A stretch of 64,000 nucleotides of DNA. Origin: Nitrosopumilaceae archaeon (GTDB lineage Archaea > Thermoproteota > Nitrososphaeria > Nitrososphaerales > Nitrosopumilaceae). Below the pieces are notes generated by a model that saw only the letters and a program-made list of their open reading frames with translations, was not told the origin of the DNA and ran no database searches. The stretch spans positions 2,944,001-3,008,000 of the forward strand of contig CBDCCK010000002.1 in NCBI GenBank assembly GCA_965214835.1, written 5' to 3'. Shown here piece after piece: positions 6,147 to 17,368 of the stretch. A program made the translations under genes and the position numbers. The stretch's first letter is position 1; every line of letters starts with the position of its first letter.

Positions 6147-6433
6147 GCGTTTTTGAGCAAAACAATAGATGATAAAGTTTTCCGCGCTGTAACATAGATG
6201 AATAACCGTGCCTGAACGCGTAAAAACAGCCAGTTTTTCGTACCTAAAATCGGGGTTATGCATCCATGGTAAAACGCCCGCCAGTAACATGGCAACGTTC
6301 CTTTCTTCTTCTGATCCGTGCCTAGTCGGCCGGGCCGTGCTTTATAGCTAACGCTAGCAATACGCACGAGCCAGTCCTGTCGCACCTGCCAGGGTGCGGG
6401 CGGATCATTGGGTGGGTGGGTGGGGGATGGAAG

Positions 6434-6541
6434 GTGGTAATCCTATGCCGTTCCCGCCAGTTCTGTCACGGCAGGATGTATGTTTTGCTTGCGGCATGTC
6501 ATCGAGTGGTAATCCTATGCCGTTCCCGCCAGTTCTGTCAC
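6434..6541. CRISPR. Single repeat-spacer-repeat unit (36/36/36 bp), CRISPR-like, possibly ectopic
   Basis: GTGGTAATCCTATGCCGTTCCCGCCAGTTCTGTCAC at 6434-6469 and 6506-6541; insert matches reverse complement of 49748-49783 at 34/36. Confidence 0.6.
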
Positions 6542-7624
6542 CCTCTTGATCTTCTTGTCGTACAGGGCAGCATTGCGCGATGAATACGCAGTCTTTGTCG
6601 TCAGCATGTGCCAGATTATCCTGAGCATCTTGTTTGCAACATGCGTTATCGCTATGACGTGGTTGTTGCCGTTCCTTTTGCGGACCCTCTCGTAGAACTC
6701 CCTCATCCTGTCGTCGTGCTGTACGGCGACGTTGGCTATCTGGATCATCAGCCAGTTGATCCTGCGGTTTGCATCCTTTTTCATGTGGCCGTGGTACTCG
6801 CGATCCCCCGACTGGTACACCCGGGGACACATGCCGGCCCAGGACACAAGCTGGTTCGGCGATGGAAACCTGGTTATGTCACCGATCTCTGCTATCAGCA
6901 GCATTGCTGCAAAGGTGTCTATTCCCGTCATGCTCAACAGCAGCTTGGCATCCTCGTTCGATCCTGCCTGTCTTCCTATGTCCTCCCCTGCTTGGTCTAT
7001 CTCCTCTGTGACGTGTACAATCCTCCTAGTGCAGCTTGCCAGTATCCTGTCATCGTTTGGCATGTTCAGCCTGGTATCGGAGATCTTCCGTATGGCCTTC
7101 TTGGAGTACATCGTGGATGCATCTATGGCTATATCGTACTTGTCAAGCCAAGCTGTGCAGCCCGTTTATGACTGCGGTCCTCTCCTGTACCATCCGTATC
7201 CTGTACCTCATCAGCTCCCTGACATCCCTCAGCTCTGCTGATGCCACGTAGCATCGTGGTATCATTCCGGCCCTGAGCGTGTCGGCTATCTTCCTTGCGT
7301 CTATCGGGTCGGTCTTTGCGCTGGTCTCTGATACTATCTTCATCTTGAGGGTGTTTGCAAGCAGTATGGGGATATGCTGATCCTCAAACGCCCTGAACGT
7401 CTTTAGCCACATGTTGCCCGTTGACTCGCATGCGGCCTGGCACTTTTTGTACTCTTTTTTCAGTCGTGCAGCAAGCTTTGATGCCTCCTTGTACGTGTTG
7501 TTATACGAGCCCTCCTCTAGCACGTGTCCCTTGGCGTCGATGACGCACACTGCGCATTTTCTCTTTCCAATGTCTATTCCTATGCTTCTCAATCCTTTTC
7601 TTTCACCTCCTTTTGGATATGGTT

Positions 7625-7765
7625 TGACAGATCAGAAGCTGCATTCATCCATCAGTGCGCGTAGCACAGGAACACAGCAGCTCGGATATCCCCATTCAAC
7701 AGGTAGTGCGCGAAGCACATGCATAACGAGGGGTTGATCCATCACCCTGGCTACGGCGGGGGCGT
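7625..7765 (-). ncRNA. Putative IS110 bridge RNA (two stem/internal-loop/hairpin domains)
   Basis: Minus strand: CCCC-loop-GTGC(TTCGC)GCAC-loop-GGGG then GAGCTGC-loop-GTGC(TACGC)GCAC-loop-GCAGCTT; loop segments match the element junction; ends approximate. Confidence 0.75.
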
Positions 7766-8064
7766 TTTTATCATGTGTTCAACAGGCTACGCGCTGTAAA
7801 AACCTGCAAAAATCTCACCATATTTACGATCTTTTTACTCATCCGTAGATCCATTACGGGGACTTGATCGCCAAATGCAGGGAAAATGACCAAGGCGGTA
7901 CGTGGTGGGCCGATTTGCCCGAGGAGACGCAGGAAGGCATGGAGTGTGAATAGTCCAGCCTCAATAGTTCTGATTGACCCAGTAGCCAGACTCGGCCCGG
8001 ATCGGGGGCTTGCTCGTACTCTTACAGATGCCCTGATGATGCGGGCAGGCATGATGCGTAGTAT

Positions 8065-9111
8065 CTAGCCGAGATAATCGCTCATCTGGCAGATTTTGAT
8101 CTCGCCCCTGCGCAACATGACGCGTATGGACTTTTGCATCTCGCCGACGGTCTGATACAGGCGGCTTGCAGTCGCCTTTTTGACCCCGCGCCACTGCCCC
8201 TCTATCGGGCTCAGCTCCGGCGTGTACGGCGGCAGGAACTTTAGCACCACATCACCATTCCATTCTGCCAGCTGCTCCCCGACCAGTGCGGCCCTGTGAT
8301 ACGATGCGTTGTCGACAAACAGCAGCACCTTGCCGTACTTGCGACGCAGCACCTTGAGAAACCTGATGGACGTGTGCTTGGCCGTTTTGTAAAAGCGGCA
8401 GTCAAGTCCGTTTGCCGACAGGGCACCGATCGAATAGAACCTCTCCTTTGACAGGTTGGACGGCGCAAAGACCGGGCCTTCCCACGGGATACCAGCTGTT
8501 CTTGACGTTCCACCCAAGGATGAACGAGGCCTCGTCCCCTATCATTGCCGTGTGCTCCCTCTTTGAATGGTACCTTACGTGCCACCTAGCTTTTTTTTGA
8601 ACTCTTCTTTCTCGGATTCTGAGGCTGGTTTTGGGTGCTTTGGGCGGGGGGCTTTCTGCATGAAAAGCCCAGGCATGTGCAGTATCTTGCATGCGCTGGA
8701 GACGGCATAGTCTGCCTTGTATTTCTTTTTGATGTGTACCGCAAGCAGCGGTGCGGTCCACACCTCCGACTCGAATCCGCAGCTGCGCGGGCCCGCAACC
8801 AGGTCGGCGCGCACCTGCTTGAGATTCCCTGCGTCCGGCCACATCTTGGTGCCGGGCCTCTTGATGTCGTACCTGCCCTGTATGCCAAGCTGCATGGCCC
8901 ATATCGGCCAGTCACGTATCGTAGAGTACCCCCGGCCGAGCTGCCTGGCTATCTGGCGTATCGAGTCGCCTTTTTTGCGACGCATGTAGGCCATCAGCCT
9001 GGCTGCGGCCTTGGAGTCGGTCTCGTTTTTGTACCTCTCAAAGAGGGACGGGGTCGAGACGTTGGGAAGAAACTTGCCCCCTGTTGGGATCATCGAGTAG
9101 TCTGGTTTCAT
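8065..9111 (-). mobile_element. IS630-family transposase (HTH ORF 8575-9111 plus DDE ORF), A8 slippery site, one further frameshift
   Basis: WTAPLL HTH region, DEAS, VDNASYH, LPPYTPELSPIE; TTCAAAAAAAAG at the ORF junction. Confidence 0.9.
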
Positions 9112-11209: not shown

Positions 11210-11769
11210 TGATCCCCCTCCGGCGTCCGATCCGAGGTATGTTTCAGCCGGCTGAAAAAAAACAGTCTTCCCAAAAGTTCCCCAAAGCGGCTTCAAACTC
11301 GAAACGGTTCTCAATCGCAGACACTATGCGCCACACCGGCACATCACGGCGCATCACTGACGCGGCCGCGCTGCCGGAAGTTCTGCCACGTGAGCCTGCG
11401 CCCCAGTATCCTCTCTGTCTCAGACACGTCGTCCCGGAGAAAGTCCCGCAGTCGGCGCCTGCCTTGGGGAGGTGGCGGACATGGATGTTATGGGAGTTGT
11501 TGTGTGATTCGATTTATCCTGTATAATTTGCTCATTTTCCAAGTCATTACATCTAGATCACGTCCAATGTGGGGATGGCGTGTGGAAATTTCAAGCATTT
11601 TGGCGAATTACGCAGCATCTATGTTAAAAACACCCGTCGTAGAAACGACGATGTTCCTAGTTTCTTCTGATCCACGCCTACTTGATCGTGGCCCACTTTA
11701 GCTGACGCTGGTTGCACGATGCAGTCGCGCTTGCCTTCTCCCGGTGCGGTCATGTCATATCCTCCCAGA

Positions 11770-11987
11770 TCATTGGGTGGGTGGTGGGGCAGGAGGTGAG
11801 TCACCGCAGGCGGTTTCTTTCCTCCTGGTCTTGACGGATCAGAAGCTGCAGTCATCTATCAGTGCGCGAAGCACAGGAACACAGCAGCTCGGATATCCCC
11901 ATTCAACCTCGAGTGCGCTGAGCACATGTCGCGTAAGGGGTTGATCCATCACCCTGACTACGGCGGTGGTGTTTTTATCACGTGCTC
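11770..11987 (-). mobile_element. Non-autonomous IS110 derivative (218 bp) retaining both ends and the bridge-RNA-like region
   Basis: Right end TCATTGGGTGGGTGG and about 155 bp of left-end sequence shared with 6405-7780; no transposase. Confidence 0.85.
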
Positions 11988-12215
11988 AACCCCCATGTTA
12001 TGATGCCAATCTTGCGCATCCGGCATTTGTAGATGATCCTGCACACATAAAATTGAGCTTGCCGCGCGTCTTCTCAAAAGTAACCCAAGCCAACGCATTC
12101 TGACCAAGGCAGATCAGTTAGGCACAAGTCTGCATGCAGATATAGCCTGCATTCCTGACAGGTGGATGGGACGTGGCCTCGTACGCTAAAATAGATCTGC
12201 GTCACATCCCAAACA

Positions 12216-12635: not shown

Positions 12636-12759
12636 AGCTTGGATGCGCGCCGGGGCGTGAAAAAATGAAATCGTCGTACATTGTCGTGCATAGCGTCCGC
12701 TGGGTCGTGATTTAAAATGAATCATCGCGCATAGTCTCTATGTAAATGGCTGAACCAGT

Positions 12760-15745
<2,986 letters not shown>

Positions 15746-15897
15746 GGCAAATTCAGCCACATATTACACGACTATGCACGACGATCATCGGGTGCAGTCC
15801 AGGGAGGACTGCCCCCTACATCCTTCATACATCACTTTCATGATGCATTGCATCTGATGGTTTTTTGTGAAGACTTGTGCACCCGGCACAATTTCTA

Positions 15898-17368
<1,471 letters not shown>

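What the first reader, a model, noticed from the sequence alone, without database searches (positions are those of the whole stretch)
11770..11987. 218-bp transposase-less IS110 derivative that keeps the guide RNA with a different target loop
Seen: both element ends and all stems are retained, and differences cluster in loop 1 (TTACGCGACAT / TCGAGGTTGAAT). The changed segment GAGGTTGA matches this copy's own flank GGGGTTGA (7/8), as CCTGTTGA matches the full element's flank (8/8). Its end changed from GAACACA to GAGCACG, and both changes still pair with the unchanged UGUGUUC segment by G-U wobble. Inference: a non-autonomous element with its own RNA-programmed target specificity, or a stand-alone guide that could redirect the recombinase in trans.
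Basis: partly seen in the sequence, partly recalled or inferred. Interest (0 to 1): 0.82.

Follow-up and report, generated by a model that had tools for sequence, protein, structure and literature searches.

The report
Transposase-less archaeal IS110 element with own guide
This is a roughly 370-base, transposase-less derivative of an archaeal IS110 insertion sequence that still carries its bridge (guide) RNA, and its target loop is set to the ends of a different small repeat than any full-length copy in the genome targets.

Summary
On the minus strand it runs from window 11986 to 11618 (369 bp) and is flanked by a TG core on each side.

It keeps three things:
- the 5' end with a two-loop bridge RNA;
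- the last few codons of the recombinase gene;
- the whole ~190-bp right end, including a long subterminal inverted repeat.

The same deletion architecture occurs at 6 loci in this genome and at 3 or more loci in a sister species. Upstream flanks differ at every locus.

Half of its differences from the full-length copy (11 of 22) fall in the 23 nt of the target-binding loop. Both sides of that loop match its own flanks (4/6 and 6/8). The guide-predicted 15-mer has 2 perfect and 102 near-perfect (≤2 mismatch) sites, which are the inverted ends of a ~125-bp dispersed repeat. No element with a recombinase gene in this genome has this loop.

Guide–flank covariation holds across the family (p≈0.0003 and 0.002).

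Mobility, expression and action in trans are inferred, not shown. The copies are only 83–90% alike, so they are old.

Verdict: a new variant of a known kind, of moderate to high interest.

The parts
11618..11986 (-). Complete transposase-less IS110-family derivative, 369 bp. It comprises the left end with the bridge RNA, about 40 nt of the recombinase gene tail, and the full right end.
   Evidence: Homology limits among 6 genomic and 3 sister-species copies; coordinates.
11987..11988 (-). Core dinucleotide TG at the left junction. It is preceded by target half GGGGGT at 11989-11994.
   Evidence: TG is the only dinucleotide shared by all left and right junctions.
11616..11617 (-). Core dinucleotide TG at the right junction. 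It is followed by target half CTGCGTAA.
   Evidence: A contig of another copy diverges exactly at 11616 (table 7).
11835..11948 (-). Bridge RNA core: an outer stem enclosing a target-binding domain and a donor-binding domain.
   Evidence: The minimum-free-energy fold gives this structure (-38.8 kcal/mol, z -1.68). 93.9% of cells pair over 14 sequences, 5 pairs show double changes, and many G-U pairs point to this strand.
11926..11936 (-). Target loop, 5' side. It is antisense to core plus right target; its reverse complement reads ATG-TCGCGTAA.
   Evidence: 6/8 match to its own right flank and 8/8 to the two perfect sites at C2:2609185/2609315.
11901..11912 (-). Target loop, 3' side. It has the same sense as left target plus core (GAGGT-TG-AA).
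Evidence: It is perfect at the two sites.
11875..11883 (-). Donor loop, 5' side (UGUGUUCC). It pairs with the first bases of the left end.
   Evidence: Identical in most of the family. It pairs with AGCACG of this copy through 4 Watson-Crick and 2 G-U pairs.
11850..11861 (-). Donor loop, 3' side (GAUAGAUGA). It has the same sense as right end plus core.
   Evidence: It matches this copy's right end ATAGATG 7/7. Full copies have AUGGAUG against ATGGATG.
11947..11980 (-). Left arm of the subterminal inverted repeat.
   Evidence: Local alignment of the left end against the reverse complement of the right end. The arms co-vary between lineages.
11622..11655 (-). Right arm of the subterminal inverted repeat (hairpin plus T-run). 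Limits are approximate.
11492..11615 (.). Remainder of the host repeat: a diverged copy of the ~125-bp 'b-type' inverted-repeat element. Its first 6-8 nt lie at 11987-11994.
   Evidence: The right flank aligns to the b-type consensus. The far inverted end is at 11492-11510.
6263..7779 (-). TG cores lie at 7780-7781 and 6261-6262.
   Evidence: An empty paralogous site ...CCTGT-TG-CATAACC is seen at C2:3110706.
7624..7781 (-). Bridge RNA region of the full-length copy.
6515..7592 (-). Recombinase gene of the full-length copy, split into two frames (7143-7592 DEDD_Tnp_IS110; 6515-7111 Transposase_20) by a 1-nt insertion.

Best explanation
The flagged stretch is most of a 369-bp non-autonomous derivative of an archaeal IS110-family insertion sequence.

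Origin (inferred): an internal deletion removed the recombinase gene. It left the left end with the bridge RNA gene, both arms of a long subterminal inverted repeat, and the right end.

Insertion (inferred): the element was inserted by bridge recombination at a TG core inside the terminal inverted repeat of a ~125-bp dispersed repeat (GGGGT-TG-TCGCCTAA...). The target-binding loop it carries itself specified that site. The recombinase came in trans from a full-length relative; one intact 359-aa gene of the same lineage is present in the genome.

Shown here:
- the element's anatomy and limits;
- a shared deletion at many loci with unrelated flanks;
- a conserved two-loop fold on the sense strand;
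- matches of all four guide segments to this copy's own flanks and own ends;
- family-wide guide-flank covariation;
- abundance of matching targets;
- absence of this loop from every element in this genome that carries a recombinase gene.

Inferred, not shown: transcription of the RNA, circle formation, supply of the recombinase in trans, and any present activity.
For: 1. Shared architecture. A 227-bp query gives 6 full-length loci in the genome at 81-100% identity. Their upstream flanks are unrelated up to the junction, while the interior and right end align. A sister species holds 3 more complete copies and one right-end fragment with the same deletion junction.

2. Limits. Left junctions all read ...TG|A(A/G)CAC and right junctions ...A(T/G)(A/G)GA-TG|. 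Unoccupied paralogous sites exist for both target families.

3. Guides of this copy:
- target loop against left flank, 4/6;
- target loop against right flank, 6/8;
- donor loop against its own right end, 7/7, differing from the full copies at the same position as the right end differs;
- donor loop against its own left tip, 4 Watson-Crick plus 2 G-U pairs.

4. Family-wide covariation:
- left side: 17 distinct guide/flank combinations, 64 of 102 positions match against 47.6 on permutation, p=0.0003;
- right side: 12 combinations, 54 matches against 33.7, p=0.002.
Further guide classes in public relatives follow the same rule.

5. Targets. The guide-predicted 15-mer has 2 perfect sites, 17 with up to 1 mismatch and 102 with up to 2. 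My own arithmetic gives a chance expectation of about 6 for up to 2 mismatches. The two perfect sites are both ends of one repeat copy. That repeat has 167 termini, and 57 of the 60 paired termini lie 120-129 bp apart.

6. Exclusivity. The loop pattern has 3 zero-mismatch hits, all in this genome, and none lies beside a recombinase gene. It gave 0 hits in the genome collection.

7. Fold. 31 of 32 pairs are intact in this copy. Over the family 93.9% of cells pair, and many G-U pairs would be A-C on the other strand.

8. Recombinase. An intact DEDD_Tnp_IS110 + Transposase_20 protein is encoded at C2:513380-514459.
Against: - There is no evidence of transcription: no RNA run is listed. No circle or excision joint was seen, but only assembled contigs were available.
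- Copies are only 83-90% identical to this one. Nothing points to recent movement, and the element may be extinct.
- Only this one complete copy carries the b-type loop. The other two carriers are truncated.
- Its own site differs from the guide-predicted target at 3 of 15 positions.
- Guide-flank matches fail in several relatives. On the right side: m640k 1/8, m3124k 1/8, F1519k 2/8, F1302k 3/8, m2139k 3/7. On the left side: m655k 3/6, m10k 3/6, m3124k 2/6, p504k 2/6, p2915k 2/6, F1835k 3/6.
- Three of the 6 copies here have a left flank of one repeat family and a right flank of another. They are therefore not clean insertions.
- Copies inside a mobile repeat could also spread by hitch-hiking.
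- The full-length parent of this derivative (its right end is only ~70-76% like any full copy) and any autonomous carrier of the b-type loop were not found. It cannot be told whether the loop arose in the small element or was inherited.
- All 8 group-A full copies have a frameshifted recombinase gene.
Confidence: 0.72

Rival explanations
1. The element is an ordinary deletion relic. The b-type target loop was inherited unchanged from an autonomous b-type IS110 that is now lost or unsampled. That parent's RNA and protein did the targeting, and the small element has no specificity 'of its own' beyond what any deletion derivative keeps.
For: - The parent of this derivative is missing from the genome: its right end is only ~70-76% like any full copy.
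- Two other b-type loops (C2:504k, C2:2928k) sit on truncated left ends whose original size is unknown.
- The hairpin loop of the target domain is shared with C2:2928k, which suggests the loop moves as a module.
Against: - No such full-length element is found in this genome, in 120 genomes of the family, or in the genome collection.
- The five other small copies in this genome share this copy's deletion but carry a-type loops. The loop and the deletion therefore have separate histories.
- Even under this reading, the copy today encodes a guide that no autonomous copy here has.
Confidence: 0.3
2. It acts as a stand-alone guide gene. The RNA made from the small element works in trans on the resident recombinase, sending other donors (full-length copies or other small copies) to b-type repeat ends. 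It serves as a guide source rather than as a mobile element.
For: - Right ends of elements whose own loops are not b-type abut b-type right targets exactly at the core: C2:640k, 635k, 3124k, 1517k and a sister-species copy.
- The copy at C2:655k sits at a site that matches the group-B loop, not its own.
- Bridge and seek RNAs work in trans in laboratory assays (passages read in PMC11208160, and PMC11187229).
Against: - Its donor loop is tuned to its own right end (A where full copies have G), which points to self-mobilisation.
- The chimeric flanks can equally come from homologous recombination between copies.
- No reciprocal junctions were found (0 hits).
- There are no expression data.
Confidence: 0.15
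3. The loop differences are random decay of a dead fragment, and the flank matches are chance. Copy number rose by segmental duplication or by hitch-hiking inside mobile repeats, not by IS110-type recombination.
For: - The copies are old (83-90% identity).
- Several copies have mismatched guides and flanks.
- The right-side flanks of C2:640k, 635k and 3124k are paralogous beyond the host repeat.
Against: - A 16-nt word made of the two loop sides occurs perfectly at both ends of one repeat copy. My own arithmetic gives an expectation of about 0.0015 per genome for such a word.
- 102 sites lie within 2 mismatches of the predicted target.
- The stems stay paired while the loops differ.
- At least 4-5 different left-target words each co-vary with the carried guide.
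- Upstream flanks are unrelated at all 9 complete copies.
Confidence: 0.05

Closest known systems
IS621 / IS110-group bridge RNA system (Durrant et al. 2024, PMC11208160; passages read)
   Same: - DEDD plus Transposase_20 recombinase in the full-length relatives.
- Guide RNA encoded in the left end, upstream of the gene and on the same strand.
- Two internal loops, one matching the target and one matching the element's own ends.
- A core dinucleotide included in the pairings.
- Insertion into the ends of repeated sequences.
   Different: - The element studied has no recombinase gene.
- The core is TG.
- The sides of the loops are mirrored. Here the 5' side is antisense to core plus right half and the 3' side has the sense of left half plus core. 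[quoted passage not shown]
- Both domains are closed by one outer stem.
- The right end is long (~180-190 bp) and the subterminal inverted repeat is 18-30 bp.
- The host is an archaeon.
IS1111 group / seekRNA elements such as ISEc11 and IS4321/IS5075 (PMC11187229 passages; the IS4321/IS5075 work seen only as a reference title)
   Same: - A long right end and long subterminal inverted repeats.
- Targeting of the terminal inverted repeats of other mobile elements.
- In the laboratory, cargo flanked by the element ends moves when recombinase and RNA are supplied in trans.
   Different: - In IS1111 the guide RNA lies in the right end, downstream of the gene; here it lies in the left end.
- The trans-mobilised mini-donors are laboratory constructs, not natural multi-copy elements carrying a guide.
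ssr9 MITE-like element associated with ISPpu9 (PMC12288879; discussion passages read)
   Same: A natural small segment flanked by IS110-family end sequences, proposed to move when the transposase is provided in trans.
   Different: [quoted passage not shown] No separate target specificity is described.
Classical MITEs (non-autonomous derivatives of DDE-transposase insertion sequences)
   Same: Small, non-coding, multi-copy deletion derivatives that depend on a transposase made elsewhere.
   Different: A classical MITE takes its target choice from the protein that moves it. This element carries the molecule that sets target choice. It has no terminal inverted repeat and makes no target duplication beyond the shared core.
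Compact IS110 elements that lack the 5' untranslated region (bioRxiv 10.64898/2026.08.14.744561; one passage read)
   Same: They also imply that recombinase and bridge RNA can reside on separate loci and work in trans.
   Different: They are the reverse split: recombinase without guide. Here it is guide without recombinase.

Membership tests
IS110 family (insertion sequence with bridge RNA) | Encodes a DEDD_Tnp_IS110 + Transposase_20 recombinase | tested here: not met
   The 369-bp element has no such gene. Its only sense ORF (78 aa) is open in 2 of 7 copies. Full-length relatives do encode the recombinase: an intact 359-aa protein, E 7.9e-30 and 2.5e-24. The element is therefore a derivative, not an autonomous member.
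IS110 family (insertion sequence with bridge RNA) | Non-coding RNA with two internal loops next to the element end | tested here: met
   32-pair model, 93.9% of cells paired, 5 pairs with double changes, slid controls 27-49%. The minimum-free-energy fold of this copy reproduces the model. No Rfam family matched.
IS110 family (insertion sequence with bridge RNA) | Loop 1 matches both target halves, loop 2 matches both element ends, and the core dinucleotide is included | tested here: met
   Tables. Permutation p=0.0003 (left) and 0.002 (right). For this copy: 4/6, 6/8, 7/7, and 4 Watson-Crick plus 2 G-U pairs.
IS110 family (insertion sequence with bridge RNA) | Site-specific insertion with the same core dinucleotide at both junctions and no further duplication | tested here: met
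   TG is at both junctions in the alignments. Occupied and empty paralogous sites are compared.
IS110 family (insertion sequence with bridge RNA) | Circular intermediate with abutted ends | tested here: inconclusive
   Four runs were laid, all as assembled contigs, and no joint was reported. Contigs cannot show rare circles.
IS110 group as opposed to IS1111 group (criteria as stated in PMC11208160) | Guide RNA in the left end | tested here: met
   The RNA lies between the left tip and the start codon in all full copies.
IS110 group as opposed to IS1111 group (criteria as stated in PMC11208160) | Short right end and only a 2-3-bp subterminal inverted repeat | tested here: not met
   The right end is ~180-190 bp. 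The subterminal inverted repeat is 18-30 bp, for example 18/18 in group D.
IS621-type loop polarity | [quoted passage not shown] | tested here: not met
   The arrangement here is mirrored in all guide classes. The IS621 rule is taken from the paper's text.
MITE | Small, non-coding, multi-copy | tested here: met
   369 bp; 6 copies here and at least 3 in a sister species; no conserved ORF.
MITE | Terminal inverted repeats and a target-site duplication | tested here: not met
   The tips differ (AGCACG... against ...ATAGA). Only subterminal repeats are present. Only the 2-nt core is shared by the two junctions.

The most novel reading that the evidence does not exclude
These small elements are self-directing parasites of a recombinase they do not encode. 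Because the guide RNA travels with the donor DNA, a transposase-less copy can change its target loop and colonise a class of sites that no autonomous copy in the cell can reach; here that class is the inverted ends of a 125-bp repeat. In RNA-guided transposons the guide-plus-ends module, not the protein gene, would then be a unit of selection. The same RNAs would also redirect full-length copies and drive rearrangements between repeat families.
Probability: 0.4. Interest if true: 0.8.

Novelty: new variant of a known kind. Interest (0 to 1): 0.62.

Why it matters
Bridge-RNA recombination has been studied as a two-part unit carried on one element. A natural, multi-copy element that keeps the guide and both ends but has lost the protein gene would show that guide and recombinase can separate in nature. 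It would be more telling still because its target loop is tuned to sites that no resident autonomous copy targets. In that case non-autonomous copies need not inherit the target choice of their helper.

This bears on three questions:
- how target specificity diversifies in RNA-guided transposons;
- how such elements persist when, as here, most full copies carry a broken gene;
- how off-target or 'half-site' recombination reshapes repeat-rich genomes.

It also gives a compact natural set of archaeal guide variants with known targets, which could be tested in reconstituted systems.

In four literature searches and eight papers consulted I found no description of a natural bridge-RNA-carrying, transposase-less derivative.

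Tried and rejected
- **Rfam.** No family matched the region at gathering thresholds or at E up to 10; only two chance hits appeared.
- **Expression.** No RNA holder is listed among 11 runs. This is no evidence either way.
- **Circles and empty sites in reads.** Four runs were laid, all as Logan contigs broken up by repeats. No joints were reported. The contigs confirm the sequence and show other copies diverging at 11616.
- **Orthologous empty site.** The flanks of the element have no counterpart in the four genomes of the same genus, apart from ~70 nt next to the rRNA gene. Only paralogous empty sites could be used.
- **b-type loop in other genomes.**
  - In 120 genomes of the family, only hits with 1-2 mismatches were found, at rates like the reversed-pattern control.
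  - I checked 6 of those loci by BLAST and read 3. They showed no recombinase and no homology to the element; two of the three read as coding sequence and one as a coding repeat.
  - The loop pattern gave 0 hits in genome contigs.
- **Scaffold patterns.** Two scaffold patterns gave 0 hits in metagenome contigs. The looser pattern gave 9 loci in genome contigs.
- **Coding hypothesis.** The 78-aa sense ORF is rejected, because it is open in only 2 of 7 copies.
- **Strand by free energy.** This is not decisive (z -1.68 against -1.55). The strand call rests on G-U pairs.
- **Reciprocal junctions.** Junctions that would prove recombinase-made exchanges between repeat families were not found: 0 hits for the left-b/right-a word.
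- **Bacterial promoter scan.** Not run, because the tool covers sigma-70 promoters only.
- **Rows dropped.** Three left-end fragments without an alignable loop (C2:1869k, 747k, 225k) were left out of the 28 rows before the left-side permutation. The right-side test used the 17 elements for which I could read a right junction.

Full report
**Setting**

The window lies in a 3.22-Mb archaeal genome (G000 contig C2, 2944001-3008000). Archaeal 23S and 16S rRNA genes sit at window 12751-17368 on the minus strand. Public relatives that share the element family carry Nitrosopumilaceae, Cenarchaeum or Nitrosopumilus MAG titles. Everything below is read on the minus strand of the window, which is the sense strand of the recombinase gene.

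**The reference element**

- Window 6263-7779 is a full-length IS110-family copy of 1517 bp.
- Two adjoining frames carry DEDD_Tnp_IS110 (7143-7592, E 1.1e-29) and Transposase_20 (6515-7111, E 2.1e-26).
- Seven other loci match it at 98.0-99.4% over ~1285 bp. I call this set of 8 copies group A.
- All 8 share a 1-nt insertion that splits the gene.
- A second lineage, group B, has 3 copies at 88-91% identity. One of them (C2:513380-514459) encodes an intact 359-aa protein with both domains.
- A third lineage, group D, is ~65-70% identical and present as 4 left-end copies; the two with a readable gene are broken.
- Ten or so far more distant IS110-type genes (27-39% identity) lie elsewhere.

**Checking the observation**

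The flagged stretch does match the reference. Window 11826-11990 aligns with 7620-7783 at 86.8%, and 23 bases at 11768-11790 align with 6403-6425.

- the two loop strings are present;
- the loop-to-flank matches are 7/8 and 8/8;
- the two A-to-G changes at the tip still pair as G-U;
- of 22 differences from the reference over 158 nt, 11 fall in the two sides of loop 1 (23 nt) and 2 in its hairpin. None falls in the 22 stem positions of the two loop domains.

The left limit, however, is wrong.
- Six genomic copies were aligned with 350-bp flanks. They are unrelated upstream of the left junction but remain alike for about 150 bp beyond 11770.
- The common right end is ...AACATAGA followed by TG.
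- That end is what the 3' side of loop 2 spells. This copy has AUAGAUG against ATAGATG. The full copies have AUGGAUG against ATGGATG, so guide and end differ at the same position.
- The element therefore spans 11618-11986 (369 bp) with TG on either side.

**Anatomy**

The element has three parts:
- the first ~165 nt of the left end;
- about 40 nt that align with the last codons of the recombinase gene and its stop;
- the whole right end.

The left end and the reverse complement of the right end share a subterminal inverted repeat of 18-30 bp. Its sequence co-varies between lineages, for example 18/18 in group D. The derivative keeps both arms.

The RNA model has an outer stem enclosing two domains. 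Each domain has a base stem, an internal loop and a capping hairpin.
- Over 14 distinct sequences, 93.9% of 446 cells pair.
- Five pairs show changes on both sides.
- Controls with the partner slid by 1-3 columns pair at 27-49%.
- Many pairs are G-U (one of them in 13 of 14 sequences). These would be A-C on the other strand, so the RNA is read in the sense direction.
- This copy forms 31 of 32 pairs. Its minimum-free-energy fold gives the same structure.

**How the guides read**

The core is TG, the only dinucleotide common to all left and all right junctions.

| Guide segment | What it reads |
|---|---|
| Loop 1, 3' side | Same sense as left target plus core plus the first two bases of the element |
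| Loop 1, 5' side | Antisense to core plus right target |
| Loop 2, 5' side | Antisense to the left tip |
| Loop 2, 3' side | Same sense as right end plus core |

This is the bridge-RNA logic described for IS621, but with the sides mirrored. [quoted passage not shown]

Four guide classes show the rule cleanly.

| Class | Target | Nature of the site |
|---|---|---|
| Group A | CCTGT-TG-CATAAC | End of the 'a-type' repeats |
| Group B | GTAGT-TG-AAAATG | End of another repeated element with more than 30 copies |
| Group D | ACTTC-TG-GGAAGAC | Repeated: 57 sites within 1 mismatch |
| This copy | (see next section) | End of the 'b-type' repeat |

Further classes in public relatives behave alike.

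Permutation tests:
- Left side: 17 distinct guide/flank combinations give 64 of 102 matching positions against a mean of 47.6 when flanks are shuffled (p=0.0003).
- Right side: 12 combinations give 54 matches against 33.7 (p=0.002).

Failures are real and are listed under evidence against. Several relatives have one flank that does not fit their guide.

**This copy**

Its loop 1 spells GAGGT-TG-TCGCGTAA. Its flanks read GGGGT-TG-CTGCGTAA, a match of 4/6 on the left and 6/8 on the right by my fixed windows.

The flanks are the two parts of one diverged copy of a ~125-bp element with inverted ends GGGGTTGTCGCCTAATTC. That element has 167 termini within 2 mismatches of this word. Of its 60 paired termini, 57 lie 120-129 bp apart.

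The guide-predicted 15-mer has 2 perfect sites, 17 sites with up to 1 mismatch and 102 with up to 2. The two perfect sites are both ends of one repeat copy, where the match extends to 16 nt. A decayed loop would not do this.

The b-type loop pattern occurs three times in the genome, all at zero mismatch:
- in this copy;
- on a truncated left end at C2:504k;
- on a truncated left end at C2:2928k.

Both truncated carriers also sit at b-type left halves. No element with a recombinase gene carries the loop, and nothing else interrupts b-type ends at the core.

**Is it a family or a one-off?**

- The same deletion junction is found at 6 loci here.
- It is also found at 3 complete loci plus one right-end fragment in a sister species. 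Upstream flanks are unrelated at all of them.
- Copies are 83-90% identical to this one.
- A covariance model finds 31 left-end copies in the genome. By my own tally, about 14 of them adjoin a gene, 6 are small elements with both ends, and the rest are fragments.
- Clean small-element insertions, with both flanks from one repeat and fitting the carried guide, are this copy, C2:2139k and one sister-species copy.
- Three copies here and one in the sister species combine an a-type left flank with a b-type right flank. They must have been rearranged after insertion, or made by exchanges at half-sites. That idea has laboratory support in a preprint of which I read the abstract only. I found no reciprocal junction.
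- Because the hosts are themselves mobile-looking repeats, some copies may have spread by hitch-hiking. The 4-5 different left-target words that each match the carried guide still require that many separate bridge-type insertions.

**What is not shown**

- No RNA data exist for this organism among the runs offered.
- The DNA runs are assembled contigs and cannot show circles.
- No orthologous empty site exists in the genus.
- The parent of the derivative and any autonomous b-type element are missing. Whether the loop changed in the small element or was inherited is therefore open.
- The age of the copies argues against present activity.

**Comparison with what is known**

The full-length relatives are IS110-family members by protein domains, guide RNA, core and site-specific insertion. 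They combine a left-end guide (an IS110-group trait) with a long right end and long subterminal repeats, which the IS621 paper gives as IS1111-group traits.

The small element resembles a MITE in size, copy number and dependence on a helper. It differs in having no terminal repeats and no duplication, and it carries the target-choosing molecule itself.

The nearest published cases I could find are:
- the ssr9 MITE-like segment of ISPpu9;
- laboratory mini-donors moved with protein and RNA in trans;
- compact IS110s that lack the guide region.

Four searches (and the terms within them) gave no natural guide-carrying, gene-less derivative. Supplements were closed.

**Verdict**

It is a new variant of a known kind. 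Its function is inferred from comparative evidence only.

Noticed in passing
window 6515-7592 (-) and seven other loci on contig C2 (677k, 1098k, 1835k, 1942k, 2128k, 2178k, 2580k): All 8 group-A full-length copies are 98-99.4% alike and sit at different sites, yet they share the same 1-nt insertion. It separates the DEDD domain frame from the Transposase_20 frame. Either the split gene works (by frameshifting or as two chains), or these copies were spread by the single intact group-B recombinase.
   Followed up: partly
window 6434-6541: The window's full-length copy has a 72-bp insertion in its right end that the other group-A copies lack. It consists of a 38-bp piece identical to an internal part of a ~2-kb repeat present at 10 or more loci, plus a 36-bp direct duplication of the element's own sequence. 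The origin is unexplained.
   Followed up: partly
genome-wide; examples at C2:3010325-3010449 and C2:2609185-2609315: A ~125-bp element with 18-bp inverted ends has 167 termini. Of its 60 paired termini, 57 lie 120-129 bp apart. Together with the 'a-type' (~73 bp and other sizes) and 'c-type' (CAGTAGTTGAAAATG...) repeat ends, each IS110 lineage in this genome targets the inverted end of a different repeat family.
   Followed up: partly
C2:639989-640378, 635572-635719, 3124137-3124524, 1517774-1519223; sister species locus L023: These elements have a left flank from one repeat family and a right flank that is a b-type end joined exactly at the core, although their own target loops are not b-type. 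This could reflect homologous exchange between copies or recombinase-made half-site exchanges. No reciprocal junction was found.
   Followed up: partly
C2:655395-655671: This small copy sits at a left target (GTAGT-TG) that fits the group-B guide 5/5 but its own guide only 3/6. It is a possible case of guidance in trans. Its right end is truncated, so the right side cannot be checked.
   Followed up: no
C2:1751757-1751863 (-): A group-D left-end fragment stops exactly after the left-target-like word inside its own target loop and continues with a right-target-like word. It looks as if the loop DNA itself had served as a half-site in a deletion.
   Followed up: no
window 8065-9111 (-): Two adjoining ORFs carry helix-turn-helix domains (HTH_33 and others) and DDE_3, consistent with a split DDE_3-type transposase. 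I recall this domain pair as IS630-like; that label comes from no call. It is a candidate helper family for some of the small inverted-repeat elements.
   Followed up: partly
loci L057, L058, L062 (public Nitrosopumilaceae genome records): Full-length relatives in other genera have recombinases ~60% identical. They keep the same RNA scaffold with yet other target loops, each resembling its own left flank.
   Followed up: partly
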